From Ruditapes philippinarum (taxonomy: Eukaryota), in the NCBI RefSeq assembly GCF_026571515.1, contig NW_026862330.1:248001-312000 (forward strand): DNA of 64,000 nt. The letters are read 5' to 3'. Positions 3,161-60,439 of the stretch are shown here, piece by piece (positions within the stretch are counted from its first letter, which is position 1; each line of letters starts with the position of its first letter). The translations under genes and the position numbers were made by a program. Under the pieces are notes generated by a model that worked only from the letters and a program-made list of their open reading frames with translations, was not told where the DNA came from and made no database searches.

Positions 3161-5889
3161 CTAGAAAGTGCGTTTACAAGAACAATATGTTGGCAATTCG
3201 AACTGATCAAACATCAACTTTTTAATATCTGTATCATATACAAGTAATGATAGAACGACATACTCCATAACACACTTTCCACAGGAATTCCCGCCATTTC
3301 TGAAAATATACATTGTCATTATTTAGAATTTAAGTTAAATAAGAGCTGCAAAATAAATATATGGGATAGGAAAATAAAAAACTAGCAGTAAGGAAGACAG
3401 TGATTAAAATATTCGTAATCAATAATTTTGACTAGACATTACAAAATTATCATCGCGTTAATATTATCTTAAAATAGCTTATAAGTTAAACACCAATGAT
3501 TTCAAAACTTATGATATACTCACGAGTTGTAACACTCCCCATATGGTACCCATTGATACGATGGCGGATTACCACTTGTCAAATGTACGATTGCTCTCTC
3601 TTTATTATTAGTGTTATTCAAATGTTGTTCCCGTTTTGTCCTGTGAATACTAAGAAACAAAAATCATTTAGAAACAAAAGCTATATGCAAATCTATGCGC
3701 TGTGTTTGAAAGGAAAGAAATTTTAGAAGAGACGACCAAGTGCTTACCATATTAGTGTGATTTTAAGCCTTTTTAGGACCTGAACATGGTAAACTTTCAT
3801 TATTTTCAGTGTCCAATAACATTTTCACAAAAATACTACTCATTAGCTATATCTATGTACTATAATTAACATATTTTGCATTAGGGCCGATAATAAAATA
3901 TTGTGATTAAGTTTAGAAGTCAAATTAATATTTTGACTTCTTTAATGGTATTTTTTCACAATCAGCGCTACTTTAAAAACATTATAAGCATGTAACATAT
4001 TTGTTTACCAATCAATTAACTTGAAATGTAACTTTTATATGTAAGTGATTAAATAAAAGACTTTGGAAATTGTTTTGCAATGCTCCAAAATTCTGTTTTT
4101 CTGTTGTTTTTATTAAATAAACAAAGATATGGTATCAGGGCCTACAGTTGATGAGATGCTTTTCACTAAGTCGATTTATTTTTATTCGCATTAATGAGAT
4201 GTTTTTGCACATCTCAATAAAAGCTTCCGTAACTGACAAAGATGAGGACAAAGATGGGGATTTTTTTAGGCATTGCAACTTTACTTTTCTCGATATACTT
4301 GATGCTTTTGTCTCTTCGATAAAAATCAGGTGAAAAAAATTACACTTCGTTATTTCACGACTTTGCTGAAATATTTAGTAAGACGCAAAGACGTTACTCG
4401 CATTGACAAATAGTTCACGTAATTCAACAAGTGTTTTCGCAATGATTAAATAACTTCTACGTATTACCTATTAATCATTACATGTTCATGGGATATTTTT
4501 TTGTCAAAACGAGAAGAGACAAGTTTACATGACATAAAACGTTTTGGTAAGTGGAAGCCCTGATAAGCTTCCGTAGGTCTTGATATTATACGACTATAAC
4601 AAAGCAAGATCTTTTCCTACTTTACGACATTTACAATAGTAAAGATACTAATAGACGATCTTGGACTCAAAAATGACATTTCTTAGTAAAAAAATTGAAT
4701 ATGTTGATTTCGAACAAATCAATAAAAATATAGTTGCAATAATTTTGATATAGTGAAGTTTATTACATATGAGATTTTTCTATAAAATACAGAATTTATT
4801 TTCATCAATTATGATAATATGAATTTCAAGAGTTGCGGCAGCCACGAGTGAATATGATAGTTTTCATACCACAAGATAAAATCAATTCTGTATTTACAGA
4901 AAAAAATCTTTATTTTTCTGTTTATTATATACCTTTTTTATTTTGTGAATAGGCTGAATTAAGAATAACATAGTCCGACATTGCTAAAGGAAACCAGTGA
5001 AAAATAAAAATAACTTTAAAAGTGAAAATACAGAAAAAGAAAAGACGCATTTTATTTCATCAATATTTCTCAATATTTCTTTTATTAGTATATAACAAAT
5101 ATATATATTTACGTGATACAGCATGAATCACCATCACCCTGTTTACGAAGAATAACGTCAACGTCATTTACACCTTGCTGACGCAAATATTTCGATCTTG
5201 ATTCCTGAAATATATATTCCTTCTTTTCGATTTCTTCCTTGGTATAGAAAAGTCCCGTATACGTCTTCATAAGCTCAAAAGGACTGAAAAAATGTACTAA
5301 ATACTGTAAAAATCTTGAAATGGAATGATATCTCGGTAGGAATGAAATCAAAATAATGGTTATGAAAATTGTAGATTTGTTTTTGTGGCAAATTATAAAG
5401 AACATGATTTTTATGACAGATGATAATATGAAGTGAAATATAAAGTTTGCGAAATATTAGATTCTGATTCAGATATAAAATATTTTTTATATATGTTAAG
5501 CAATAACATTATTTGATATCTGAACAGCCAATTAAAATTCATTGTCATGTAAATCCTAATATATTTCAATATAAGACTAAGGTCAAATTATGAATAAGTT
5601 ATTTCAGAAACTAGAAGGTTGAAACTGAAAAATAAAAAATATGACTATTAAAATCAATTCTTATTTCACCAAAACATTGCTGATTTCAACCTTCTTCTAT
5701 AAAAGCTAACAAATCAGCAAAATTTAGTAAATACCTGTATTTTTCACACCATGGTTCCGCACACTTTTTAAACTCTAACACAGTTTCTTCTTTTGCTGTT
5801 GACTTCGTGTTCTGTGTAGCAGATAAGCTGGTGCTTGTATAGAAACACTCCAGTATCAGTATAAAAATAATAACATGTTCCATGGTCAT
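3161..5889 (-). CDS. Spaetzle-like secreted cystine-knot protein, paralog A (196 aa, 4 exons)
   Basis: Exons 5889-5735, 5283-5113, 3649-3524 and 3299-3161 (155+171+126+139=591 nt), all GT-AG and phase 2, open frame throughout. Signal MTMEHVIIFILILECFYTSTSLS; CAEPWCEKY; knot GDGDSCCITIHRTKREQHLNNTNNKERAIVHLTSGNPPSYQWVPYGECYNSNGGNSCGKCVMEYVVLSLLVYDTDIKKLMFDQFELPTYCSCKRTF*. Alternative ATG at 5883 and an alternative in-frame exon-3 acceptor 9 nt downstream. Confidence 0.85.
4128..4575. mobile_element. Non-autonomous IS3EU-type MITE (~450 bp) in intron 2 of paralog A
   Basis: Ends ccctgataagcttccgta at 4575. The body is the reverse complement of the split MITE at 14194-14400 plus 30300-30565. 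The left terminus is eroded (tatggtatcaggg). Confidence 0.75.
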
Positions 5890-7098: not shown

Positions 7099-10000
7099 TT
7101 ATCCTGATACTCTTTTGCAGGAGCAATATGTTGGAACTAAGAGCTGATCAAATGTCAGTTGCCGTCGTATTGTATCATATACAAGAACAGTTCTAACAGT
7201 GTCCTCTAATACACATAATCCGTCACATTTCCTCTTTCCTCTGAAATACATGTAGGAATTATATCACCACGTGTACACTATACCACAACACAGCATACAT
7301 TTAGTTGTGTTTATGAAATGAAGTTCTATTAAAAGCAATATTAACATACGGCAACTGAATATATACTAATAATATAACAAATGACTTATCATTATGGTTG
7401 TTGTTGTAGTGATAGAATATCATTTAAAATTTTGTTAAAATGTACACTTGTTAGAATATTAGATTACAGAACGTCGCTGGTTTTACTCAGAAATATTGCA
7501 CGGAAGAGCATCTGAGGTCTTTCACCTAAATTATTATATAAAAAGTTGCACGCAACATAGTTGTACAGCAGACCATCACCTTTTGTAATACATAATTTAA
7601 AATAACATCAAGGTTCTGATTGTGGCGCTGTAATTAAACAATTTTTTTTTATTTTCTCATCATTTTCAGTTTTACATGTACCCGTATAAAAACATAAATG
7701 GAAATACATTTTACATACTAGTTTATAGTAGTTTGATATGGCATTATACGACTCATTTAGGCGCCTTTTTACGAAAACATAGTGTCCAAGATCAATTTAA
7801 AACGTAAAACTAAATAGATATATTTCAAAATAGACAAAATCTTCTTCAAACCAACACTTACATGCATTTAGCTTGTGTTATATACTGATACTTTGGTTGC
7901 GGAGCACTTGTAAGATGAACAATATGGCGTGTCTGTCCGAAGATATTTTGCATTGTATATTGTATGTGTGTACTCTGTTTTCTGGAAAAGAAAGTTATTT
8001 TATCAATGAATCACTTGTGTCGTAGAACTGTATTCGACACTCAGAACCCGATTGACTTCGTTTAAATCATCTTAAAACATTTAACTGAGCATATTTGTAT
8101 ACTGACAAACAAAACATTAAAATACAATTTTTTTATTGTTATACTTTATTTCGATTCATGTTTTACTGATTTGGAAAGTAATTAATTCTCATATAGCAAG
8201 ATTTACTCATCAGTGTGGGGAATATGTTTAAAAGTCATCTAGAAAGCAATGGGCTGGCTAGTTGCTTATTTCTAACTACGTGAGACATTTTTCCTCCTAA
8301 CCAGGGCATCATGTGTTCCAGCCCTACACATGTTTATTCTTACAAACATTTTTTATAATCTAGATACTTACAAAGTAATATAAGTTTTATTTAAGCATGA
8401 TTACATACGTAACACAGCATGAGTCACCATCACCCTGGGATCCATCAATCTGTCCTAAATTTTTTATACCTTCCTTATACAGAATATAATCTCTATCTAT
8501 GTCAAACATGAATTGTTGTAAAAACAGCTCGTATTCTGTCATGAACAACCCTTTGTACATTTGGTGTACCTCAGATAAACTGAAATGATGAAACGCAATG
8601 ACCAAGTGTTCTAATTTACATTTCTATAAATGTTTTCCTGTAATAAATACATGTTTGAAACTAGGCATAAATCAATTTATCACACACCCGTGCCGATTTT
8701 GCGACTCCGTAAAAATGGTATTGCACGGCCGTGCATATATTTTGACGTGAAATATCATGCTCGCCAGAGGCTCGCATAATATATTTTTGTTCAACTTGTT
8801 CAATAAATTCAGTATTGAACTTACACTCATTCAATATCCTATATATACTACCAGTTAATCTAAAACAATGTACGTATAGCTCATGTTATCCTATTTGTAT
8901 ACTAATTAATATTTTGTAGACATATTTTGTAAAAAAGAAACAAAACAAAAGACATTGCAATATTATAAAGTTGCATAATTATCATTTAGAGTTTTATTCT
9001 ATCAAACATTTTTTTAAGACGTCATTGAAATTGAAATGAATTGGATCCAAACTCCCGCATGAAATAAGTTTTGTAGGGTAGTGTATTTTTATTGAGTTTC
9101 ATATTGCTTTATTTTATACCTTTAGAAATATGCACTAATTTGGCTTTTCATAGAACGGCGGCTTTAGTAAGAAAGAAAACGCAAATTGGGAGAGTTCGGT
9201 AATTGTTGTATAACTTTCAATCGTTTAAATAAATCTTTTAAAAGAAGTAGTCGGATATAACTTAAGTAAACAGTCGCTTTGAACCAGCTGTTATCAGGAC
9301 GAACATGCTTTGATTTCGCACTTAAAGTGATAAGTTACTTCCACGAAAGGATTATTAATCGTTCAAATTAATCTCTTTCCTTGCCCACCGATTTTGATAA
9401 TAACCTTGATTAATTAATAGGAATTTGAGGGCGGCTTTAGTGGGATTTTAATTATTAGATATTTTCCATGAAAGGGGTAGAAAAATATGTCTTCATTTCA
9501 TCGTTTGGTACTATAATAAATCGATCAAATAACTTATTAAAACATTTATTACTGTAATAAAATTGTACCTTAATCGATTGTTAGTGCAAACGGTGTATTA
9601 ATAGAGGTCACAAGACATTAGGCTAAACAAAAATAATAATGTAGTGTATACTAGTATCTGTTACATTAAAGAAAAAAAAGACACGAAAAATCTCAAATGA
9701 CAAATTTGTATATAAAACTGTTCCATTACAATGACTTTTCTGGTGATATAAACTAAACAACAGGGATACCATAATTAATGTGAGACACCTTGAAAAACGA
9801 ATTTATATAGAATGTAGATAACGACAAAACAGTTGATTTTGTATGATTTTGTTTTGATATTTTCATTTTTTTCATGAAAAATTAATTTCATGGTATATAT
9901 AAACAAATTATAAAATATCAAAAGTCGAATTATAACCTAAGGAGGTCGTACTCGTTTTAATCGGCTGCTTAATAAGTTTATGACAAGGAGGAATTGTATC

Positions 10001-10668
10001 ACCAATTTGATTTTCTGTATATTAAAATGATTTGTATTTCTTTTTTTCAATTTTATTTTTTCGTTTTTACCGAAGTTTACAATTATTGACAAAGAACGTA
10101 ATTCTTAATTGATCTGAAAATTTGCTAACAAGTTCTTCATTCCGACCATTATCAAATGTTACACAAACCTAGTAAAATGTCTCAAATCCCGTCATGTCAT
10201 AAAACCTCAGCGAGGATTTAGATAAAAAAAAAACACTACAAAACACTAGATATCAATCAATTTAATAATTAAAACCTAGGAGAATAACGGCGATTTTGAC
10301 TTTTTGGCTCTTGGTGAAATTTTTCATTGAAATTATAACCACACTAATAGTCGGAAGCAGAGATAACCACGACATTAACCTAAAAGTGCATGGATAGCTG
10401 AAAGGAAAGTAAATAGCTTAGTTACTCATATCTTCCCGGTCAGTCAATGTTAATTACAAAGATAACAAATAACTGGTGTACTATAGAAGTGCCAAACGAC
10501 ATTAAAATACCTGTATGATTCACACCATATGTCTGTGCAGTCTTTTTCTATCTCCTTCTCTCCATCTGTATCCATATTTATAACATCAATGCCCTGATTA
10601 CCATCACCAGTGGGTAGGCAATAAACTCTAAAAACTATTAAATAACAAGCAAATAAAATAATATGCAT
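7099..10668 (-). CDS. Spaetzle-like secreted cystine-knot protein, paralog B (196 aa, 4 exons)
   Basis: Exons 10668-10511, 8579-8409, 7981-7862 and 7240-7099 (158+171+120+142=591 nt), GT-AG, phase 2. Signal MHIILFACYLIVFRVYC; CTDIWCESY; knot GDGDSCCVTKQSTHIQYTMQNIFGQTRHIVHLTSAPQPKYQYITQAKCIGKRKCDGLCVLEDTVRTVLVYDTIRRQLTFDQLLVPTYCSCKRVSG*. Confidence 0.87.
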
Positions 10669-27014: not shown

Positions 27015-27345
27015 CGACTAACGACAACAACGATGATTACGACGACGACGCATAAGACTAAGACGACTATTAATATAAATACTGCTTCTACTACTTAACT
27101 ACTCTTACTTCTTTGGCTACTACTATCACATGTACTTCTACTTATTATTACCTACTTCAACTACTACAACTACTGCTGCTACTGCTACTTATACTGCTTC
27201 TACTTCTTTGGCAATTACTTCTACTACTGCTGCTACTTATACTACTTCTACTACTGCTGCTCCTACTACTACTAGTACTGCTGCTGCTGCTGATGATGCT
27301 GCTTCTGCTGCTAGCAATACTAGGAAAAATACTACTGCAACGTTG
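27015..27345. repeat. Degenerate trinucleotide microsatellite ((ACG)n then (CTA/CTG/CTT)n)
   Basis: Low-complexity triplet tract. The overlapping poly-L, poly-T/A and poly-S ORFs are artefacts of it. Confidence 0.9.
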
Positions 27346-28750
27346 AATGGCGCTTTTCCAATTATCGGGGTATTTTAGGGGGTTTAAAACAACAACAACA
27401 ACAATCGACTCTTTCAAACAACTATGTAAATATAGCACACATCACTATGAACTTACGGTACGCTGATTTGGGTATACTAGTAGGCAGATCCAAGATTAGT
27501 GTCTGTCTTTTATCATATAGAACTGATTCAAGCGGTTTTTATTAGTGTTTTTTTTATTTCTATTAATTTTGGAAGAACAAAAAGGGGCAAGGTATGGTGA
27601 ATAAGTAGTGTGCAATAAAAATGTTACCATTTCTTCTGTATAATGGCAGATAATGAGCTTGGGCATTTTTGTAGAAGTATATTTTTGAAACCGGTTCATG
27701 GCGGCCGTGTTTTAAAAGTATCTTTTCATTTCTTCAATACTGCATTTTAATTGTACTTTCTAGTGAATTGCAACATGTTCACAAGAGAAGAAAATTGCAT
27801 ACCACAAAACATTTGCACTCAAGAAGCGTTTTAGCAAGAACATGCCTGTTGGTAGCTTTGCAGCCAATATTGTATTTCCAATTGTTCGTATGGTTCCAAA
27901 AAATGCACCCAAATTTCATTCATATTATTACATTTGCAAATTACTTTTTATCATATTTTGGTAAACTGTTCCAAGCATAGTATTATGTAAAACAAATTAT
28001 CATAATTTGTTGATTTTGTTTTCTAAGTCACTGTGACCTTGACCTTCACCCGACATAATCCATTGTATAAAATGATCTACCTTACATTGAGATTCACTTT
28101 CTGGCAAAGTTTAGTCAAAATCAAAGCAAAAATGAAAACGCTAGAGCGGTAACGCCAACTTTATTTACGGAAGACGGACGACGGAAAAATTTACCACAAA
28201 AGCTCATCCTGTTACGTGGCAGGAGAGCTTACACATTATGAAATTTGACCTTGATATCGGTATGACCTTGAAAGGTAAACATATAGTGATGATATTACAT
28301 AACTTTTTTTATTGAGTTTTGTATTATTTTCAAAACTTACCTCAATAAACACGTTTGGCTAAACCTCCATATTGAATTTCTTTAATATGACATTGTATTG
28401 GCAATTAAATTCTTTATAATGAAACAGAGATATGCTTTGTTAAGTACTTCATTGGTTACTTTTGCCAGTCGCAATACAACTAGTATATTAAGTACTTTGA
28501 TTTTACTTTTAATGATATCATATATATTGATAATTATGCATCCTTTTTTCTGAATTAAATACTAAGGTTAATTAAGATTCCTAAAAATGCTGTGTTTGGT
28601 AAGTATTTATCCTGTTATTGCATGCTTACAATCATTTTAAACCATTTTTTTGGGAGGGGGCCCACATAAATTTTAAGGTAATTTAAGCATACTGTTAAGT
28701 CTGGATGAACAAATAAATTGGAGTAATATAGTTATTTTGTCGCTTTAGCA

Positions 28751-31672: not shown

Positions 31673-34372
31673 ATGTTTTACCAGATGATAACACTGTGCG
31701 TAATACTGATGATCATGACGTGTTACTCACAGAAAACAGACGATATAACACGTGACCGGAAATCGCCATGTTCTAATTCTAAATGTGGAAAGTACAGGTC
31801 AGATAAGTTTCATTTGTATAATCTTATATTACTTTGGATTTTGGCGTAGGATTTTGGCGTAGTTACATTTGTTCGCTCAAACTAAATTTTCCTTATTTTT
31901 TTTATCATCTTTTTGCAAAATTTTGTAATTATTATTCACTATACATGATATTTGATAGTGATATAAATTGATTTTCAGTCACAAGTAATTCAAATAGTGA
32001 TTAAAGAAAGTATAATATTACAGGTATTGTAAACTCATATACTGAAGAGAGTATTGCCCGTTAAAAAATTATTTTGTCACACAGTTATAGGAAGATTTTG
32101 AAGATGTTTCCAGGAACGTTTTATACGAGAAAACAAATAGAAGGCAATGAAAGACAGTTCAGGGTGGCACGTATGAAATACCTCGTTGAGCAAGGTATTC
32201 ATATGAAGTCAGGGATGATCGGGGATGGTGACTCTTGTTGCCCTACGTAAGCAATAAACTTTCTTTGTTTAAAGTGATAGTATGCTCATTTTTGCACTGT
32301 CAAGCCGAGATAACGCATGTAGTTGTATATTTCAAAAGGTTGACTTTTTAAATGACGATTGAAAAATAATTTATAATATCAAATGTAACGTGTAAAAACT
32401 GCCTTCAAAATACAAAGACTACCCCACTGATTTTTCTTTATAAATTTAACATTATCGATATGTATAGATTTTTTTTGTGGGTCACAGGGGTTATTTTAGT
32501 TATAAACGAACATTCACTTTTTACTCTTGTATGGGCATAATGTCACTTTAAAGTTGTTAATTCAAAGTTATTTTTCTTCTGTCGGATGCGAAAATATTTA
32601 TAATGTTAAACATAAAAGGATCATTTTGTTATGTAATAGAAAGAGCACCGAAACACGAGGCTATCTGATTTGTACGAGGGGGCGTAGCCCCCGAGTATTA
32701 ATCAGATTACCGAGTGTTTTGGTGTTCTTTCTCTTTTGTATCATAGTCAAACATAAAAACACGTTCCCTGTTGTTACAATATGAAACCCCGGCAAAAATG
32801 AACCATTGAACGAGCATCTAAATATGACATTTCTGTCGATTTCACTTTCACTGCCGTCACAATATGTAAACCCCAGCAAAAATGAGCCAATCAATGGGCA
32901 TGCTCTGGAGTGCGGGTAACTAATACCCGCACTCCAGTTAACGCACTGTGCATGTATATGTATACGATTTAACCCTGACACATTTTCAACAGAAAGGTCT
33001 CCAAACTATGATACAATTTGTATTTGTTTCTGTGTGCTTTTGTACAAATTTAGTGGGACGGAATATAATAATTTTTTTACAGTTTTGAAGAAAAGCTAAA
33101 TAACATGACTGTTTATATTACCTTTATATGTGGGATTCAAGTATTTCATATGAATTATTACAACTTAAAGTTCATACAAATACATAATAATTTTCGAACA
33201 TTTTCAAATGTAACTTTTCAGAAAAACCCTTACGTTCACAAATTTCACGATGACCAATATTGACGGAGAGAACAAGTATTTAGTACATACACCGCCTAAA
33301 TACCAATTCATTCCTCATGGAGTGTGCATGTAAGTTTTCAATAACGCCATCTTAAAATATCTGACACGTTTTGGTGTAAGCTTATGTTAATTAGATGAAT
33401 TTAACCGTATTGTTAAATATTATTTAGTTTTCAAATGCCTTTACTTACACTGAAAATATTTTGTTTAAACAAAATAGTATGGTGCTAAGAAGTTAGCTGC
33501 TTGATTAAAAGAATTAACTTAAGTTCGTTCTTTTGCTCTTGCACATATCATATTTCAGTTTTGTGTTAGGGTCTACTATGGGCTTCTTTTTTCGTGAGAG
33601 TGGAAGGATTTGATAAAACCAATGATTGCCTCATGATTATTTTTTAACCTTAAGTACAAAGTTCATCGAAGGTATAATAAGTCGACAGCCCCAATAGCTG
33701 TCATTAAGTAGTCAGAATAAATCATTCATAAATTATCATCCTCATTAAAACTTTGGTTAACCGGTTTACTGCTCAGAAAAAGACGCAGTACAAAATTTGT
33801 TCTTTAATAATAAGAAAGTGACGGAGCAAGTTAATCATGCAATGATATAAAGCATAACTGCATCAACTTCTATTTCTCATTTAAAAAACATCCGATATAT
33901 GTTACAAAGTGCTTTTTTGGCCAGATATGAAATTGTATATACCATTGTCGGAATAAAAAAGAAATTCGGGAGCATCTTACGTACATATCAATTAAATGTT
34001 CGAAAGGCGATACCAAAGTTTTGATGATTTCTTTTAACAAAGTAATCACTCACCTCATTTGCATAGTAATAACATGCTTTATTATATACATATGATAAAT
34101 GTTAAAACGTTACAGCCACACTGTGTGTTATATGATATGAAGGACAACGCACTCGGAAGTAATATATAGATATTTGATATTCATCCCACTGTAAATTAAA
34201 CACTATATAATTATTGTTTTATATTTATATCTTCAGGAAAGGAGGCACTTGTGATGGGATATGCGTCAATGAACCAGTTACCCACTCTCTATTGACGTAC
34301 AATGTTGAAAAAGGAAAGCTGGAGTTTGACCTGTTTATCGTACCAGGATATTGTTCATGTAAATCAGTATAA
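31673..34372 (+). CDS. Spaetzle-like secreted cystine-knot protein, paralog C (176 aa, 4 exons; the only plus-strand copy)
   Basis: Exons 31673-31797, 32085-32246, 33222-33329 and 34237-34372 (125+162+108+136=531 nt), GT-AG, phase 2. Signal MFYQMITLCVILMIMTCYS; CSNSKCGKY; knot GDGDSCCPTKTLTFTNFTMTNIDGENKYLVHTPPKYQFIPHGVCMKGGTCDGICVNEPVTHSLLTYNVEKGKLEFDLFIVPGYCSCKSV*. AATAAA at 34605-34610. Confidence 0.88.
32640..32730. repeat. Long imperfect hairpin (part of a non-autonomous DNA element) in intron 2 of paralog C
   Basis: aagagcaccgaaacac..atctgatt.gtac..gggggcgtagcccccgagtattaatcagat..gtgttttggtgttctt. Confidence 0.7.
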
Positions 34373-35002: not shown

Positions 35003-35182
35003 TTTATGAGGAAGCTATCCAGCTAGCTTACGGAACGTCGGTGGTTCTACTCGGGTACCCGTTCGTGCCTGAAATAATGCACAGAAGGGCACCTGAGGTC
35101 TTCCTCCACCAGTAAAGCTGGAACGTCGCGATATGACCTATACTGTGCCGATGTAACGTAAAAACCCAAAACAAACAAACAA
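35003..35182 (+). mobile_element. SINE body and tail (5'-truncated)
   Basis: tgaggaagctatccagctagcttacggaacgtcggtggttctactc...gggcacctgaggtcttcctccaccagtaaagctgga...cgtaaaaaccc with a (caaa)n tail. A homolog with a B-box lies at 15385. Confidence 0.7.
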
Positions 35183-36641: not shown

Positions 36642-39270
36642 TTATACGACCTTGAAATCGTCATATGAATTCTTGCATGAACAGTACCCTGGTATGTTGA
36701 ATAGATCAAATCGGAAGTTGTTGTTTTCATCGTACCCTAGGAGTGTAATGGTTTTGTTTTCTAACGTACATTTTCCTTGACAGCTCCCTTTTCCCCTGAA
36801 ATATAGCATTTTGTTTTTGAACAAAGGCAGTTTATTTATCATATAATTATATAACTCCACCCCTTTAAAAGACCTGTTTAGCTATATTTAATATATGTTT
36901 CTTATTCATTCATGTAGAATAAATCACTTGACATCATTTTATAAAATATCATTTCCAAGTAAGGTGCGTCATTTATTAATTAAAACATAGAATGATATAT
37001 GTAGGTATTACTTAATGTTTACAAACTTTGATTAAGATACTTACGAACAGTTAGCAAGCGGCATATACTGATACATTGTCTTGGAATCGACGGTGAGATT
37101 CACTATCGTCATCATTCTATCATGAATGTTAAACATCTTCTTAACGTATGTATGCTTTATTTCCCTAGAGAATATAAAACATTTAAACATTATTGGCTTT
37201 TATTACAATATAACCGAAACATTTACTTACGCAATAAATCTTTATGGAAAAACATTGCAACAATTCGTTAACTGTTGTTAATAATTCACAAAACTTAAAG
37301 CAAGATCTGTTTGTAAAACGTTCCATTTATTCCCAGTTTCAATGCAAATAATCAAGGCATAAATCAAATATTTCAAGGCATAAAAAACATTATCGATTAA
37401 ATAATTGAAATAGTTTTGATTTGCTGCTATCATTACTTCTTGCAAATTTATTTATTTTGTGCTTAGACTGCTGGGCAGCAAATTATATTACTTTTGCGAC
37501 CAGTGAAGACAAAGACCAGCCTATGCTAGCCAGCCTATCAAAGTCTATGCCGTCTGATCGCCGTCTGCATAGTTGGCTATTCAGTCAGTGCGTTTTTCGA
37601 TTTTCCCTTAAAATGATAAATGATTTTGTCTTGCTTGAAAGATGTACAAGTCCATTTCAGATATTAAGTGCTGCGACTTCATTGATATTTTCAATCTTTT
37701 GTATTATTCTAAAGTAATACGAAAAGACTTTTTCAAACCGAGCTATACTTATTAGTTGGGCGTTCTTTATGGTTTTCGATTAATCTGNNNNNNNNNNNNN
37801 NNNNNNNNNNNNNNNNNNNNNNNNNNNNNNNNNNNNNNNNNNNNNNNNNNNNNNNNNNNNNNNNNNNNNNNNNNNNNNNNNNNNNNNNNNNNNNNNNNNN
37901 NNNNNNNNNNNNNNNNNNNNNNNNNNNNNNNNNNNNNNNNNNNNNNNNNNNNNNNNNNNNNNNNNNNNNNNNNNNNNNNNNNNNNNNNNNNNNNNNNNNN
38001 NNNNNNNNNNNNNNNNNNNNNNNNNNNNNNNNNNNNNNNNNNNNNNNNNNNNNNNNNNNNNNNNNNNNNNNNNNNNNNNNNNNNNNNNNNNNNNNNNNNN
38101 NNNNNNNNNNNNNNNNNNNNNNNNNNNNNNNNNNNNNNNNNNNNNNNNNNNNNNNNNNNNNNNNNNNNNNNNNNNNNNNNNNNNNNNNNNNNNNNNNNNN
38201 NNNNNNNNNNNNNNNNNNNNNNNNNNNNNNNNNNNNNNNNNNNNNNNNNNNNNNNNNNNNNNNNNNNNNNNNNNNAGGGGGAACCCCAGCTTATAATTCC
38301 TGAAATACCCTCTAGCAAACTTTTTAAAACATGAACAAATCAAACATATAAATAGGAGAAAATACATACGTTGGACAGCAAACGTCCCCGTCGTGCATTG
38401 TTCGTTCAGAATTTGTATTATGAAGTTCTTCCCTATCTAATGGTGTGTGTTGAATTGCGTTATCGGTATTATCAAATGCATCAATTTCTTTTTCTGAAAA
38501 GAACATGCCTTTCAACATTTCTATATCTCTGTCAGTTCTGAAATTGTCAGTAACATAATATCATATAGTTTTACCAATAAATTACTACACATATTAGTTA
38601 TTGTAGTAAATTATTGGGTCATAAGCTATGACAACTTGTGCACACAAATCAAAGTGGCAATGTTATGCTATGTTGACAAATTCATTTTCATAAGTGAGAG
38701 ATTATTATTGAACACTTAACGCTTAAATCGGTTTATAAAATTCCATGTTGGGTTCTATTAATTACAAATAAATAGTGGCATTATCAATTCGTAAGGAAAT
38801 CACTATTTTTGATCACTAATTCTTTTTCTTTAAAGTTATTGCTCATCTCTACTTTAGAGGCGTTGTAAACGTTTAAAATCTAAGGTCAAATAGATTAAAT
38901 GAAATAATTTTATAAATTTGAAAATGAATGTTACTGTTTCAAGGACGATTAACATTCAAAGAAGAGAGCCTTTCAATATATGTCAATATAAGCGCTATTC
39001 ATACTAAGCTTTTTAATCGTATATTTTTAAAAAATATAAAGTACCCTCACTATTCCGAGTTCCCGTATCCTCGAATCAGCGATGTAATGCTTCCCTTTCC
39101 GTAAATAAGAAACGTCCTTACCTTGTTTTTATGTCACATGGGCCTTTTAGACAATCCTGTAAGTAATTCGCTTTAAATCGTGGTGGTAAATTGATGGGGA
39201 AACATAAAGCGAAATAAATACTGTAACTGATAAATAAATTTATCTTCAAAGCACATGGTAACAATTTCAT
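36642..39270 (-). CDS. Spaetzle-like secreted cystine-knot protein, paralog D (196 aa, 4 exons; intron 2 contains the assembly gap)
   Basis: Exons 39270-39122, 38537-38370, 37164-37045 and 36795-36642 (149+168+120+154=591 nt), GT-AG, phase 2. Signal MKLLPCALKINLFISYSIYFALC; CLKGPCDIK; knot HDGDVCCPTEIKHTYVKKMFNIHDRMMTIVNLTVDSKTMYQYMPLANCSGKGSCQGKCTLENKTITLLGYDENNNFRFDLFNIPGYCSCKNSYDDFKVV*. Confidence 0.8.
37788..38275. other. Assembly gap (488 N)
   Basis: Run of n characters. Confidence 1.
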
Positions 39271-42025: not shown

Positions 42026-44977
42026 TCATGATGCTTTGCATGAACAATATCCAGGAACAACAAATTGATCAAATTCAAGAGCTAAACTGGCTGAGTTAAA
42101 AGTCAAAATTGTTTGGATCACTGGTTCAACTACACATTGTCCGTCACAAATACCACTTCTCCTGAAATCAAAGACAATACATGGCAAGTTAGAAGCTTCC
42201 CTATATTTGTGTGAACACAATCATTCTTAATTTTTGCATTTATTTCTGTGCTTAGCCATTGTCATTTCGAGATGATATTTTCAAACCTTAAATGTTGAAA
42301 GACAACAAAATGAATTAGAAAAACCCTTAACGATATTTTAATGTATGTTTTATACAGTCAAACTATAAGTAAAATATAACTATTATTTTCATTGTAACTA
42401 AACCATATATTAGAGATAGGTGATACTGCGTTTATACTCCTCAAGGTACGTTTGACATTATTTATATTATCACAACCACACTCTGACTATATTATGGTAG
42501 CTTACAAAAGTTTACGCTTACTAGGTCTAGAGATCAAATGTTCAAATTTTACATGCTGTAAACATGTTCAATACATTATTACTAACATCGCTTGTGTCAT
42601 ACGCACTGAACTATCTATGTGATTGATTGGGAAGGAGTAGACAGTTTAGTAAAAATTTGAAAAATAAGATCATCAAGAAAGGGCGGCACTCAATGAACGT
42701 CTCTCCCATCACAGGATTACAAGCAAGAAACCCAATAGGACACCAAATACGACAGGACACAAAACCTCAGTGCCAGTAAATAAAATTAGCAACAATCGTC
42801 CGATACTTGCCCGTAACAAACTTGTGTGTTGTTATCAATTAACTCATGCAATTTGATACGGTATTTGTCTTTACATTGTTATCTGAGATGAAAAATATGG
42901 CCTCTAGAAACTGTTATATCTTTTTTTAGTATTTGTGTTTAACATTAAGGTTAACAAGTTGGTACATAAAAAAGTAAAATGCAACAGTGTTTAGTATTAA
43001 GCTCGATAGATATTCATTACAAAGTAAGTTACTTACAAACAACTTCCATGAGGTACGAACTGATATTTTGGAGGCATATGTACAATAAACTTTTTTTGTC
43101 CATAAATGTTTTTCATCGTCGTATTTATAAATGTCTGTACTTTCCTGAAAAAAAGTTTAAAATCATCACGCACAGTTTTATTATTTGCTCGATTTGCGCC
43201 CAATGAAAAGAAAACAACCACTTTGGATAAAACGAATTATTGTTTCTGCTACAAGAAGGTGAATCGTGGAACAAATGTTCTCTCGAAGTTAATTCTAAGA
43301 GCATAAAGTAAAAATATACTGGAGAATCACTTGTACGTTAGGCGAATAACTGCCAGATTCCATGCGCTTGGAAATTACTGAACATGTTTCTAAATATGTG
43401 AGTCGCTGATTTTTTTCTAATATTGTGACTGGTGTTGAAAGCAGGTTTCGCTATTTAAGGCAATACGCATATGTATCAATAAGATTAGGGCCACTTAAAA
43501 TGTTCGTCAAGCGATTGACAAGTGTTTTCACGTTTTACTTTTTTCAATACCCGTGAAACTTTTTTCAATTTCCTGTTTCTATGGCCGTTCTGAGGCCTTT
43601 CTGTCACAACAAGAATAATAAAGATATCGTATTCAGAAAAGAATTAAAAATTACTTCAATCAAGTTCGTTTATCGACTGGTATGAAATGCCTGCATTTGG
43701 CACCATGTGACTTAATTCCTCTTTCCTTAAAACTGCTTACAGGGCATCGTTCATTGGTAGAAATTGACTTGGGTCGGGTATTCTTTCAGGTATTCAAAGG
43801 TTTACATAAGGAGGACTTCGGTGAGCATTTTAAACTTTGGAATAAATGTCTGAAAATTAGTATTGTAGTAGCAGTAAATCATATCTTAGTGTTGAAACTG
43901 AAAATTGTAAAATACTTGCTCTTAGATTTAATTTATTGTCCATATTGCATTACATATTGGCCTACCCTTGTACATGGTTAAACGAATATATCTTATAATC
44001 AGGAAAACAATCAAACGACATGTTGTACCATGATTTCTTTATTTAGATTAACATACTCTTGATAATAGCATGGAAATGTTATTGAACTTGGAATAAAAAG
44101 TTATAAAGATACGTTAAGAGGCTACTTACGTCTCACAGCATGAATCACCGTCACCTAACAACCCAACTGGAAGGTGAACATCTTGTTTCTGTAAATAGTT
44201 CTGTCTTGTTGTTTTAAACTGTGTCCATTTTTCCTTAGCCTCTTCACGGGAATAAAATAGACCTGGGAATCGCCATGATATATAACTGTAACTAAAATTA
44301 AAATATATGACACAACGTTTTAACCCTTAAATAACTTATTTTAATAAAAACTAAAAGAACTTTTACAATTTGTTCTCTATCAAATTTTTATATTTATCTA
44401 ACAGTTTTACCGATCAAAATGTGTTAATGGCTGATTTTCATTTTACATTAATTACGACACAAGAAAGTATTAAAGCCCTTTACACAAAACAATATTATAC
44501 AAGAGTAAATAACACTTTGACGTGACGTCAATTACGTAATAAAACAATTAGCGTTATATACGCATTTCACTTTATGCGCGTCAATGAAACATAATTCGTT
44601 TTAACTGTTAACCGTTCTTATTTTGGATATGTGATAAAACAAAGAATATATTCGTGTATATTCAATATTAAATTTATTTATCTTGTGAAATAAAACAATA
44701 TTTTGTTCGCCAGAAGCATAATGAGATTTCTTTTCAACTAGTTCAAAAAATCTAGTGCTAAACCTACATGAAAATCTAAAACTTTATAAGATTAACGGAG
44801 AAGTAGAGTGTATTACTTAACTTACCTGTATTTTCCACACGTGTACTCTTGGCATAGTGTTGCCTCACTTGTGCTCGGCTGTCTTGTCCTTTTTAAAAGA
44901 CGACCAAGTTTTCTGTAATCAGATGCACAACACGCAATAATCACTAATATAATAAAAATTCTAAACCAAGTAGCCAT
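42026..44977 (-). CDS. Spaetzle-like secreted cystine-knot protein, paralog E (183 aa, 4 exons)
   Basis: Exons 44977-44826, 44285-44130, 43144-43037 and 42161-42026 (152+156+108+136=552 nt), GT-AG, phase 2. Signal MATWFRIFIILVIIACCAS; CQEYTCGKY; knot GDGDSCCETKVQTFINTTMKNIYGQKKFIVHMPPKYQFVPHGSCLRSGICDGQCVVEPVIQTILTFNSASLALEFDQFVVPGYCSCKAS*. Confidence 0.88.
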
Positions 44978-56782: not shown

Positions 56783-59502
56783 TCACAGCTTAATGTCATA
56801 GACATGTATTTTGTCACTTTTTCCACTAGAAGGATCAAAAGTTATCATCATTTTGTCTTCCGGGACAGTAAGAGCAATATCTTGAGGTCCCATGACGTCG
56901 TCAATCCTGTTTAACACTTCAGATATCAAGTTTCCATCCTTGTCAAGGATTTGGACATTGTCAGATCCAAAACCACAAACAATGACACGCCCATCTTTTG
57001 TGACATAAATGCCACGTGGTGAATTCATACTATTATCCTAGAAATGAAAAAGGAATGCATTTTGTTAATCTTATCGAGTATTAACCATGATAAAAATGAT
57101 GACTTTTTTCACAAATACATGATAATTAAGTAGGACAATCCGAGTATCAGCTATGTCATAAAATTTGTTTTTGTAAAAGTTACTTTCGTAAGCTGTAAAC
57201 AGGTGAAATACGTAACCCCGAAACAAGGGAACCATGAACTCTAAATGGGGGAACCATGAACCAGAGTGCTTGTAATAACCGATCGTTCTCCTTTAATTCG
57301 TTCATCATTTAATATTTTAATACGCTGACAAGTCAATGATAATAACAAGCGGCGATATACAATGAAGTAAATTTTTACAATTTACCTTATAGACAAATTG
57401 TTTCATAGTCATTCCGGATATACATGTCACGTGGCTTCTGTGGCAGTCAGTAACGTACATTAACCCTCCAGTAGAGTTCAGTTTCACATACCAAGGTCTG
57501 AACAACATCGGAATGAAAGTGTCGTCTGGGCGAATTTCTTGCTTTTCCTTCCCATTTATATCAATTATCTACGAATAAATACACATACTAAATTTATATC
57601 TTTAAACTAAATTTCAGTATTTCTTATCTTTATATTCATACTTAATAACAACAACAACAAATGAGACGTGTACACAATAAATCATTCATTTAAATTACCT
57701 TCTTAAGAATTTAGGATAAAATCTGTTAACAGACAAACCTTTATAGATGGTGGTGAGGCACATGAGCATGCAACAGCAAATCTATCTCCAGCAAAAGATA
57801 TTCCATATCCTCGGTCAGATATCATAATGCTTTTGCTGAGGATAAGCGAAGCACCAATTTTGAAAATATCTATTCTATTCTCCCGTGGAATTGTCACAGC
57901 GAGTTCAGAGTCTGATATAATCGTGATTCCAAAGGGCTGACTTTCGAGAACCGTCTCTGATACTAATTTCAGATCTTTGCTAAGTATCTTCAGCTTATTG
58001 TTGTTTCTGTCAACCAAAATTGTTTGACCGTTTGGTGTACATACGATTCCCGTGAACCAGCATGTTTCTTTATCCGACGGAGAACTTGCAGAGAAAACGT
58101 CTTTTAAGTTTGCGTACATTGTTGATGAATGTACTGACTTCATACTTTTGATACTCTTTGTGTCTGATTTTAAAGTACGCCTTGATCCCATTATGTCCAA
58201 CTCATCTTCTGGATCCGAGTCCGATCTTGCTGTCATTAGAGTCTTTGATGTGGGTAACCGGGCTGAGGAGGACATTACCCTTAGTTCTCCTAATCGACTT
58301 ATTCCCTTCATCAGATTTTCCAAGTTGCTGTCTACAGCAAAATTTATTTTTGTATTCTTGATGCGACTATTAAGAGATCCTAGTTTTTCCTTGTAATATT
58401 GACTTTGTGTAGTATTATCTGGAAGGTTTTGTAAGACATGACTGTCCGTACCGTACTTTTCTGTACTTTCTACTAGACCATGAAGATTTCCCGATGATTT
58501 TCTTATACGCTGTGCTTCTTTGGTTTCACCACGGATTGTTTCCTTTTCTTTGTTGTGCATGGTGTGAAGCTCTTGGATAATTTGCGTCTCACATTTAGTT
58601 AAATTCTCGTTTATCTTTTTCCTGACATCTTTTATCTTTGTTAAAACATCATTCTGATCATCATCTACAGATTTATCAGCCTTCGTTCGGTTTTCATATA
58701 TAGACGTAGCTAGATTTGTTTCTTCATGAAGTGTACTGTTTGTTATATCTATCTGTGGTTTGTTCCTTGAAACAGCTTCCTTCAGCGTTAATACACCTTT
58801 GCATGTTTTATGACTTCCAGCCACGCATTTTTCACATAGGACTTCCTTATGGTTGTCGCAGTATTTAGTGACATTTTCTCCTTCGTGAACTGTGCAAAGC
58901 GGAGAAGATATGATATCAGCTATATCTTCTTTACGCAGTTTGGCCAGTTGAACTAGACTGTGTTGCTTCGTTGATTTCAGAGCATTATGAAAACCTACAC
59001 AGTTGTCACATAGTGCATCATGGCACATTTTGCACCACTCCGCTGCAACTGTTTTACGATTTTGTCGTCTGCAAGTATCACATGATTTATCAGGATCTTT
59101 GAGTCTTAGAGCTTCTAGATAACTTCGGAGGAATTCGTTCGTTTGAAGTTTATCTACTGCTTCCTCTGGGCTTTTAGTGTCGCTTGTAGTTTTAGTTAAT
59201 TGTAGGCATATTGGACAAAAGATACCGGAGTTGTCAGACTGTTTTGTTTCCGTATAATACGTAACCAGACAGTTTCTGCAATAGGAGTGCATACATGACA
59301 AAGATTTTGGATTGTCTAGAGTATGTTTACATAATTCACATCTTGCAAACTCCTCAGCTTGCGAAGTTACCTTTGTTGGGCTGTTAGCTTTCTTTAGTGC
59401 CTTAGCTTTAGCAGCAATAGATGCTGTGCTTGAATTAATATCACTCCGAGTACTCTTAGGTTTAACCGGACTCTTCGTCGGACTTCTTGATGTTGATGCC
59501 AT
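56783..59502 (-). CDS. Tripartite-motif (TRIM) E3 ubiquitin ligase-like protein: RING, B-box1, B-box2, coiled coil, NHL-like beta-propeller (733 aa, 3 coding exons)
   Basis: Exons 59502-57739, 57568-57386 and 57037-56783 (1764+183+255 nt), phase 0, GT-AG. RING CELC..CMHSYCRNC..CPIC; B-box1 CDTC..CKMCHDALCDNC..H..H; B-box2 CTVH..CDNH..CEKC..H..C; helical region; NHL-like repeats (FTGIVCTPNGQTILVDRNNNKLKI, PRGIYVTKDGRVIVCG, PQDIAL). An acceptor AG just upstream of the ATG (exon starts at 59509) implies a 5' UTR exon further upstream. Confidence 0.92.
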
Positions 59503-60439
59503 TTTAAATCTGAAATTTTAATAATAATATGGCGATGACTATATAAAAATGCTTAATTTTCCATTAGTAGTCAATGCATGACAAATTGGCACTTAAAGTT
59601 ACGGCTATTTTTCCTAAAAGGAGCTTCAATTAAATGAATTAACTGCTTTTCTGCGATTTTTAAAATAAATCATGAAAATAAAGAATAAAACGTGAAATAC
59701 ATCTAGCTTAATATGTGCAAATTGGCGTGTACAGACTTTTGAGGGACTCAAAAACTACACAATTACTGCACGGTACTCACAATATAATTATACCATTTAA
59801 ATTGCATGTATTATATTTTGATAACATAAAACAAATCATACCTTTCATGTACGTTTATTCTTCCATTTATATTATTTCACTACGATTTCATTCCAGTTTT
59901 TAAACTAAATTTACTTCACCAACTACTCCTATTCAAAATAATACATAAAGCATCATTCACCACCTTGTAATAAAGTTCGTTATGAATGGTTGTCAAAATT
60001 TAAACTCTAATGCTGTGGATTCAATTATAAATCTATTGATCGTTTTGGGTTTTCTTTTAATTTTGTATCTGAAGTTTAATGAAAATATAAAACATCATTG
60101 AATAAGAATATATCGATTTGTCCGTTTCTTTAGAAAAAGAGAAGAAAAACATTTACATCGTTAATCTAAGGGTATTTCATTACCTTTTGAAATAAATTTA
60201 TGCGTATTTGAAAGATGAATAGAAGAATTTAATATCAACACTGATATGATAAAAAATTAAATAAATTTGAATGAAAGAATGATATTGATAGATCTAATAT
60301 ATCTAAAGAAAATAAAACCTTGTCAACTTTTATTTGCTCTTAAACTTTTCTTCAACAGAAATACCCTTTTTCTCCGACAAAAACTGAAATTGAATATGAC
60401 AGAGAACTATACGTATATAATATACATGTAGATGTGATT

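What the first reader, a model, noticed from the sequence alone, without database searches (positions are those of the whole stretch)
32220..34372. Rewired cysteine code: the Spaetzle dimerisation Cys is replaced by Tyr and a new Cys appears next to knot Cys-I
All six paralogs end P(G/T)YC(S/A)CK, whereas Drosophila Spz has PSCCKC, whose first Cys forms the interchain disulfide. All six instead start the domain with a CC doublet (SCC/VCC/ICC). Seven Cys are kept but the spare one has moved to the N-terminal end. Inference: this could give a different dimer geometry, heterodimers among paralogs, or a covalent tether to the pro-domain. The coordinates show paralog C as the example.
Basis: partly seen in the sequence, partly recalled or inferred. 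Interest (0 to 1): 0.7.

Follow-up and report, generated by a model that had tools for sequence, protein, structure and literature searches.

The report
Mollusc Spätzle-like family, relocated spare cysteine
Six neighbouring clam genes encode predicted secreted Spätzle-like signalling proteins that lack the cysteine insects use to bond two copies together and carry a spare cysteine elsewhere; this pattern is shared across molluscs rather than special to this cluster, and the proteins are predicted to pair in the usual way, likely linked through the relocated cysteine.

Summary
Observation confirmed: six intact four-exon paralogs (25-47% identical) all have a CC doublet at knot Cys-I and P(G/T)YC(S/A)CK, with Tyr where Drosophila Spz has its interchain Cys. 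The pattern is not special to this cluster: 90 of 97 complete homologous domains have it, across bivalves, gastropods and a brachiopod; the insect arrangement occurs in 2 of 97 (beetles), both together in none. A predicted homodimer (0.42, best control 0.02; may reflect solved NGF/Spz dimers) puts Tyr170 against Tyr170', the usual geometry, with the spare Cys93 at the interface base; a Cys93-Cys93' bond was not shown. A pro-domain tether is unlikely: relatives without pro-region cysteines keep the doublet. One gastropod clade lost knot Cys-III but kept CC, so the spare could be Cys93 or Cys137. Verdict: a real mollusc/brachiopod variant of the Spz/neurotrophin family, not described in papers I could read (the Paphia Spz paper was unavailable). 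Interest 0.38.

The parts
31673..31797 (+). Paralog C exon 1: signal peptide and pro-region Cx4C pair (Cys33 at 31769, Cys38 at 31784)
   Evidence: junction 31797/32085 in contigs of runs X1 and X2; protein identical to database P0001
32085..32246 (+). Paralog C exon 2: helical pro-region ending in GDGDSCC; spare Cys93 (32236-32238), knot Cys-I Cys94 (32239-32241)
   Evidence: junction to 33222 in X1 and X2 (listed one base shifted)
33222..33329 (+). Paralog C exon 3: first finger of the knot, Gln124, knot Cys-II Cys131 (33325-33327)
   Evidence: junction 33329/34237 in X1
34237..34372 (+). Paralog C exon 4: Cys137 (III), Cys141 (IV), second finger, Tyr170 (34349-34351) at the Spz interchain-Cys position, Cys171 (V), Cys173 (VI), stop
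3161..5889 (-). Paralog A; exons 5889-5735, 5283-5113, 3640 (or 3649)-3524, 3299-3161
7099..10668 (-). Paralog B; exons 10668-10511, 8579-8409, 7981-7862, 7240-7099
36642..39270 (-). Paralog D; exons 39270-39122, 38537-38370, 37164-37045, 36795-36642
   Evidence: no database copy and no junction among the rows shown, so the model rests on splice signals and homology
42026..44977 (-). Paralog E; exons 44977-44826, 44291-44130, 43144-43037, 42161-42026
   Evidence: 3 of 3 junctions in X2 and X4; identical to P0002
50485..52779 (-). Paralog F; exons 52779-52637, 52113-51946, 51124-51005, 50623-50485
   Evidence: 3 of 3 junctions in X2; identical to P0006

Best explanation
These are six intact paralogs of a mollusc- and brachiopod-wide family of predicted secreted Spätzle-like cystine-knot ligands that are predicted to form the usual parallel Spz/NGF-type dimer, with Tyr170 filling the two-fold position of the insect interchain cysteine and the odd cysteine at the base of the knot likely supplying the covalent link instead. 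Shown: gene structure, cysteine pattern, alignment to Spz, spread of the pattern. Inferred from the family: secretion; knot bonds 94-141, 131-171, 137-173; Cys33-Cys38 paired with each other; release of the knot from the helical pro-region by proteolysis; signalling through a Toll-type or neurotrophin-type receptor. Predicted only: the dimer. Untested: whether the odd cysteine bridges two chains, and whether it is Cys93 or Cys137.
For: Cys pattern and signal peptide in 6 of 6. Profile match to Drosophila Spz E 2e-6, next NT-3 E 0.004; hhalign to beetle Spz 96%. AF2 model pLDDT 91.5, pTM 0.77; fold matches coagulogen Z 7.6 (rmsd 3.8, 116 aligned) and NGF Z 7.2 (rmsd 2.7, 84 aligned), tied. Of 97 complete domains 90 have Cys at I-1 only, 2 at V-1 only, 5 neither, 0 both (after dropping one fragment). 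Homodimer of residues 84-176: score 0.42, best of 3 controls 0.02, runs agree in at least 74% of contacts, pLDDT at least 82; the mark was reached by 21 of 30 solved microbial homodimers and 0 of 23 single chains, by 17 of 29 eukaryotic pairs (animals 7 of 16) but only 1 of 7 without an older solved relative, so the pass may be from memory of NGF/Spz dimers; 170-170' and 151-151' are among the best pairs; 89-94, 136-139 and 172-175 are in the interface. Knot-domain Cys count is odd in 65 of 90 (related sequences, not independent). Three named neurotrophin-like clam proteins have exactly seven mature Cys with the same doublet and no pro-region Cys. Precedent for a basal interchain bond: Aedes Spz1C Cys59 (PMC9427763, passages).
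Against: Cys93-Cys93' is not among the 25 lowest-error pairs listed, and no tool gave coordinates, so no S-S distance was measured. The doublet is lost in some members (chiton P0047, P0074), so a link there is dispensable. Whole-protein Cys parity was uninformative (odd in 36 of 72, crude signal-peptide cut). A six-member gastropod clade lacks Cys-III yet keeps CC, which fits an intrachain role for the I-1 Cys. 0 of 9 full-length proteins reach Pfam's Spaetzle cut-off (best 25.7 against 27 bits). No conserved basic cleavage site before the knot (some basic site within 30 aa in 41 of 90). The survey was seeded with these proteins, so it favours their pattern.
Confidence: 0.55

Rival explanations
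1. The knot itself is rewired or mobile: the I-1 cysteine (Cys93) bonds Cys-VI (Cys173) within the chain, and Cys137 (position III) is the spare one, free or interchain; or the dimer is non-covalent, as in vertebrate neurotrophins, with one free thiol.
For: A supported clade of six gastropod proteins (SH-aLRT 99; Aplysia, Lymnaea, Elysia and Candidula among those named) has no Cys at position III but keeps CC and CxC; 5 of the 6 have six domain Cys. Cys93, Cys137 and Cys173 all fall in the predicted basal interface. The III-IV spacing is only 2-3 residues in the six paralogs.
Against: That loss is one evolutionary event. Cys137 is kept in 84 of 90 and aligns with Cys-III of Spz and NT-3. Members that lost the I-1 Cys keep the six canonical ones (P0047, P0074).
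Confidence: 0.25
2. Cys93 tethers the knot covalently to the pro-region, as the first reader suggested and in the manner of horseshoe-crab coagulogen.
For: The best fold match, coagulogen, spans model residues 26-176, pro-region included, and the pro-region is confidently folded. That coagulogen links its N-terminal part to the knot by disulfides is recalled, not from a call.
Against: The pro-region has exactly two Cys, four residues apart, in 6 of 6 paralogs, so a tether would orphan one; a beetle Spz without the I-1 Cys has the same Cx4C. 11 of 72 full-length CC homologs have no pro-region Cys by a crude count, nor have P0143, P0144 and P0146.
Confidence: 0.1
3. The spare cysteine gives a different dimer geometry or drives obligate heterodimers among the six paralogs.
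For: All six share the doublet and sit in one cluster; interface residues Gln124, Leu151, Phe162 and Tyr170 are shared by the paralogs, so mixing is sterically plausible.
Against: The homodimer model is symmetric with 170-170' on the axis. The doublet is family-wide, not tied to this cluster.
Confidence: 0.1

Closest known systems
Insect Spätzle, Spz1/C106 (Pfam PF16077; PDB 3E07, 4BV4, 7B1C)
   Same: Signal peptide, pro-region with a Cx4C pair (beetle Spz), six knot Cys in register, Pro three before Cys-V, seven Cys in the knot domain; best sequence match among solved structures (E 2e-6).
   Different: No Cys at V-1 (Tyr instead); extra Cys at I-1; Cys III-IV loop of 2-3 residues against 13 in Drosophila Spz; below Pfam's cut-off; short, predicted helical pro-region.
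Neurotrophins NGF/BDNF/NT-3 (PF00243)
   Same: Same fold (Z about 7); no Cys at V-1 (alignment).
   Different: No PF00243 hit; lacks the neurotrophin consensus between Cys-III and Cys-IV quoted in PMC2772990; four-exon gene; odd spare Cys.
Horseshoe-crab coagulogen (PDB 1AOC)
   Same: Top fold match (Foldseek E 4.6e-4, Z 7.6), helical N-terminal part packed on an NGF-like knot.
   Different: No sequence match at E 10; many more disulfides and a clotting role (recalled); Z under 8 may mean only a shared arrangement.
Prothoracicotropic hormone (PTTH; PDB 5AOQ)
   Same: Cystine-knot homodimer with three intrachain and one interchain disulfide (PMC6587680, passage); that its interchain Cys lies just N-terminal of the first knot Cys is recalled, not from a call.
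   Different: Weaker fold match (Z 4.1); no sequence match; Torso receptor.
Paphia undulata Spz (Yu et al. 2015, PMID 26477575)
   Same: A venerid clam Spz homolog with seven Cys in the knot domain (second-hand, from PMC8637286).
   Different: Paper and sequence not seen; it may belong to this family and may already show the pattern.

Membership tests
Spätzle (PF16077) | Six cystine-knot Cys in Spz/NGF register | tested here: met
   6 of 6 paralogs; aligned to 3E07/4BV4
Spätzle (PF16077) | Pfam gathering score of 27 bits | tested here: not met
   0 of 9 full-length proteins; best 25.7 bits, E 1.8e-5; 7 of 9 hit the family below the cut-off
Spätzle (PF16077) | Signal peptide and pro-domain before a C-terminal knot | tested here: met
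   Hydrophobic N-terminus and pro-region in 6 of 6; signal peptide judged by hydropathy only
Spätzle (PF16077) | Interchain Cys next to Cys-V (Spz1/Spz2 type; 'some Spz paralogues' in PMC2772990) | tested here: not met
   Tyr in 6 of 6; Cys in 2 of 97 homologous domains, both beetles
Spätzle (PF16077) | Conserved dimer-interface Pro before Cys-V (taken to be Pro136 of PMC2772990; figure not seen) | tested here: met
   Pro168 in 6 of 6; aligned with the Spz Pro
Spätzle (PF16077) | Disulfide-linked parallel dimer | tested here: inconclusive
   Dimer model passes, 0.42 against 0.02, possibly from memory; no S-S distance available
Spätzle (PF16077) | Proteolytic activation and binding to a Toll receptor | not testable with these tools
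   No conserved basic site before the knot; no binding test made
Neurotrophins (PF00243) | Pfam NGF match and consensus motif spanning Cys-III to Cys-IV | tested here: not met
   0 of 9 hit PF00243 at E 1; only 2-3 residues between Cys-III and Cys-IV against the motif quoted
Neurotrophins (PF00243) | NGF-type fold | tested here: met
   Z 7.2, rmsd 2.7, 84 aligned (4zbn_A)
Neurotrophins (PF00243) | Trk or p75 binding | not testable with these tools
   not tested
Coagulogen | Sequence kinship and disulfide-tethered N-terminal region | tested here: inconclusive
   Fold Z 7.6 over residues 26-176; no sequence hit

The most novel reading that the evidence does not exclude
Molluscs and brachiopods have a large, largely unannotated family of Spätzle-like cytokines, candidate ligands for their expanded Toll receptors, in which the covalent staple of the dimer moved from the centre of the interface to its base, and in which the new cysteine can even stand in for a knot cysteine: in one gastropod lineage the 'invariant' Cys-III is gone and the I-1 cysteine would close the bond to Cys-VI, a naturally rewired cystine knot.
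Probability: 0.25. Interest if true: 0.65.

Novelty: new variant of a known kind. Interest (0 to 1): 0.38.

Why it matters
A 2009 survey recovered no Spz genes from lophotrochozoans (PMC2772990) and all these clam proteins are annotated as uncharacterized. The CC...x-C-x-C signature gives a handle on a family present in bivalves, gastropods and brachiopods, which are candidate ligands for Toll-type or neurotrophin-type receptors in farmed shellfish. If the spare cysteine links the chains, it shows the same dimer stapled at two different places in two animal lineages. It is a modest structural variation, though: mosquito Spz1C already has a second, basal interchain bond, and nothing here shows a new mechanism of signalling.

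Tried and rejected
Cluster-specific innovation: rejected. More paralogs: none in the 30 kb upstream or elsewhere among the candidates scored. Raw RNA reads of runs X21 and X23 gave about 0-1.3x depth over the exons of C and no junctions; no RNA holder was on record; this says nothing about expression. A 9-sequence profile found no solved structure at E 10; the 92-sequence profile did. Whole-protein Cys parity was uninformative (36 of 72 odd). The tree is the quick one, 98 columns, many forks open; the beetle-plus-Priapulus clade (96) joins long branches and is not relied on. Neither structure tool returns coordinates, so Cys-Cys distances could not be measured. No heterodimer job (the one complex job went to the homodimer). 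Literature: 10 searches turned up no description of the doublet; seven structural or Aplysia papers asked for by DOI or PMC id were not held; Yu et al. 2015 was not requested or seen; figures (such as the alignment in PMC2772990 Fig. 3) and supplements were not seen, and words printed with an umlaut may be missed, so absence from print is not established. Searches of earlier scan notes by sequence and place were empty.

Full report
1. The observation. A six-frame scan of the window finds the terminal motif P(G/T)YC(S/A)CK six times and a D-(G/D)-x-(S/V/I)-CC-x-T lead-in six times; 40 shuffles gave none of either. Each pair belongs to a four-exon gene with phase-2 introns: A (-, 5889-3161), B (-, 10668-7099), C (+, 31673-34372), D (-, 39270-36642), E (-, 44977-42026), F (-, 52779-50485); the proteins are 176-196 aa and 25-47% identical. 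B, C, E and F are identical to database proteins labelled uncharacterized Ruditapes philippinarum proteins; A differs by a 3-aa acceptor choice; four Mercenaria mercenaria proteins are close relatives, and the tree pairs C and B with Mercenaria genes, so the cluster is older than that split. No further paralog was found in the 30 kb upstream or among the genome-wide candidates scored.

2. Exon 1 encodes a hydrophobic signal peptide and a Cx4C pair (Cys33, Cys38 in C), invariant in all 9 clam proteins aligned. Each paralog therefore has nine Cys after the signal peptide: two in the pro-region and seven in the knot domain. A beetle Spz has the same Cx4C in its pro-region, so this pair is most simply an intrachain bond (inference).

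3. Which Cys is spare. A profile of 92 homologs aligns Cys94, the second of the doublet, with the first knot Cys of Drosophila Spz, and Tyr170 with the first Cys of PSCCKC (E 2e-6); hhalign to beetle Spz gives the same register (96%), and members with a single Cys there keep the second position. So Cys93 (I-1) is the addition. AlphaFold2 with the deep alignment gives pLDDT 91.5, pTM 0.77; the fold matches coagulogen (Z 7.6, rmsd 3.8, 116 aligned) and NGF (Z 7.2, rmsd 2.7, 84 aligned) about equally, mosquito Spz1C at Z 5.2. Pfam Spaetzle is hit by 7 of 9 proteins, none at the cut-off.

4. How widespread. A profile search of 1.84 billion representatives gave 124 hits at E 0.001. With the earlier hits, 131 proteins were aligned; 33 fragments or incomplete domains were dropped by rule and one more 89-aa fragment (P0082) by eye, leaving 97. 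Of these 90 have Cys at I-1 and none at V-1, 5 have neither, 2 have Cys at V-1 only, 0 have both. Of 30 looked up, 23 carry a name: 19 are molluscs or the brachiopod Lingula (18 with the doublet; the chiton lacks it) and 4 are ecdysozoans (three beetles, Priapulus; none with it; two beetles have the insect arrangement). The survey was seeded with these proteins and favours their pattern, but an independent Pfam search of the same genome found five neurotrophin-like genes on another contig that also have CC at Cys-I and Gly at V-1, as do the three named clam relatives read out (of six hits). The either-or distribution fits functional substitution but amounts to roughly two lineages, so it is not statistical proof. 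The V-1 residue is Y 62, H 12, F 6 of 90: the constant is loss of Cys for a mostly aromatic residue, not Tyr as such.

5. How it likely works. ESMFold2 on two copies of residues 84-176 scored 0.42 against a best control of 0.02 (contacts agree at least 74% between runs, pLDDT at least 82; the alignment was not used). Calibration: 21 of 30 microbial homodimers and 0 of 23 single chains reach the mark; 17 of 29 eukaryotic pairs (animals 7 of 16), only 1 of 7 without an older solved relative, and 0 of 30 single chains, so the pass may be from memory of NGF and Spz dimers. Among the best pairs are 151-151' and 170-170', so Tyr170 sits where the insect interchain bond sits, and the geometry is the usual one. 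Residues 89-94, 136-139 and 172-175 are in the interface, but 93-93' is not among the 25 pairs listed. I therefore read the protein as a secreted pro-ligand whose knot forms a parallel dimer, with an odd cysteine at the base likely bridging the chains (0.55). In favour: the knot-domain count is odd in 65 of 90, three related clam proteins have exactly seven mature Cys and no other partner for the spare, and Aedes Spz1C has a basal interchain bond at Cys59 besides the central one (PMC9427763). Against: the bond was not modelled explicitly; the doublet is lost in some members; whole-protein parity was 36 of 72 odd; and a six-member gastropod clade (support 99) lacks Cys-III while keeping CC and CxC, five of them with six domain Cys, which suggests that the I-1 Cys can pair with Cys-VI (0.25 for a rewired or non-covalent form). 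A pro-domain tether (0.1) is disfavoured because the pro-region pair is self-sufficient and 11 of 72 full-length CC homologs have no pro-region Cys by a crude count. Another geometry or obligate heterodimers (0.1) has no positive evidence and heterodimers were not tested. Cleavage site and receptor are unknown; no basic site is conserved before the knot.

6. Comparison with what is known. It works like a Spz/neurotrophin-type ligand by fold and architecture. It is not a Spz1/2-type member (no Cys at V-1, below the Pfam cut-off) nor a neurotrophin (no PF00243 hit, short III-IV loop). Extra cysteines are a known variable among Spz subfamilies, and the V-1 Cys is described as present in some Spz paralogues (PMC2772990; passages and section 16); that paper found no Spz in lophotrochozoans. 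PTTH is a knot homodimer with one interchain bond (PMC6587680, passage); its position just before Cys-I, and the CC doublet of TGF-beta with an intrachain partner, are recalled only. Papers seen: PMC2772990 (passages, section 16), PMC4812194, PMC9427763, PMC8637286, PMC8398477, PMC4772477, PMC6587680 (passages); PMC10279657, PMC8609888, PMC6915886 (term look-ups: only reference-list mentions); PMC9334734 (no occurrence). Yu et al. 2015 on Paphia Spz is known to me only through PMC8637286 (seven Cys) and may already show the pattern. Ten searches found no description of the doublet; figures and supplements were not seen.

7. Verdict. New variant of a known kind; interest 0.38. The boldest open reading, a relocated staple that can also replace a knot cysteine, has probability about 0.25 and would merit 0.65.

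Noticed in passing
P0031, P0032, P0035, P0044, P0062, P0083: A gastropod clade (Aplysia, Lymnaea, Elysia, Candidula among those named) has lost knot Cys-III but keeps the CC doublet and the terminal CxC: a possible natural rewiring of the cystine knot.
   Followed up: partly
G000:C4951:198206-248996 (L001-L005): A second tandem cluster of five neurotrophin-like genes (knot domain on one exon, PF16077 over the cut-off; relatives also carry PF00243) with CC at Cys-I and Gly at V-1; four of the five are near-identical.
   Followed up: partly
window 56783-59517, - strand: A RING/B-box (TRIM-like) gene next to the cluster; 603-aa open frame with Pfam RING and B-box hits and further exons downstream.
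   Followed up: no
window 32630-33017 and 35007-35163: Short interspersed repeats inside intron 2 of paralog C and downstream of it draw very deep read cover with loose ends in all runs; probably small mobile elements.
   Followed up: no
window 32246 and the matching donors in A, B, D, E, F: In all six genes the CC doublet lies at the very end of the pro-region exon, two codons before a conserved phase-2 intron, so knot Cys-I is on a different exon from the rest of the knot.
   Followed up: no
P0030, P0045, P0059; P0066, P0105, P0123, P0124, P0129: Some homologs add single extra Cys five residues after Cys-VI (scallop P0030 and relatives) or in the III-IV loop (freshwater snails among those named), positions that could pair with the spare Cys.
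   Followed up: no
window 27074-27441: Low-complexity trinucleotide-type repeat giving long poly-Thr/Ala, poly-Leu and Cys/Tyr-rich open frames; probably not coding.
   Followed up: no
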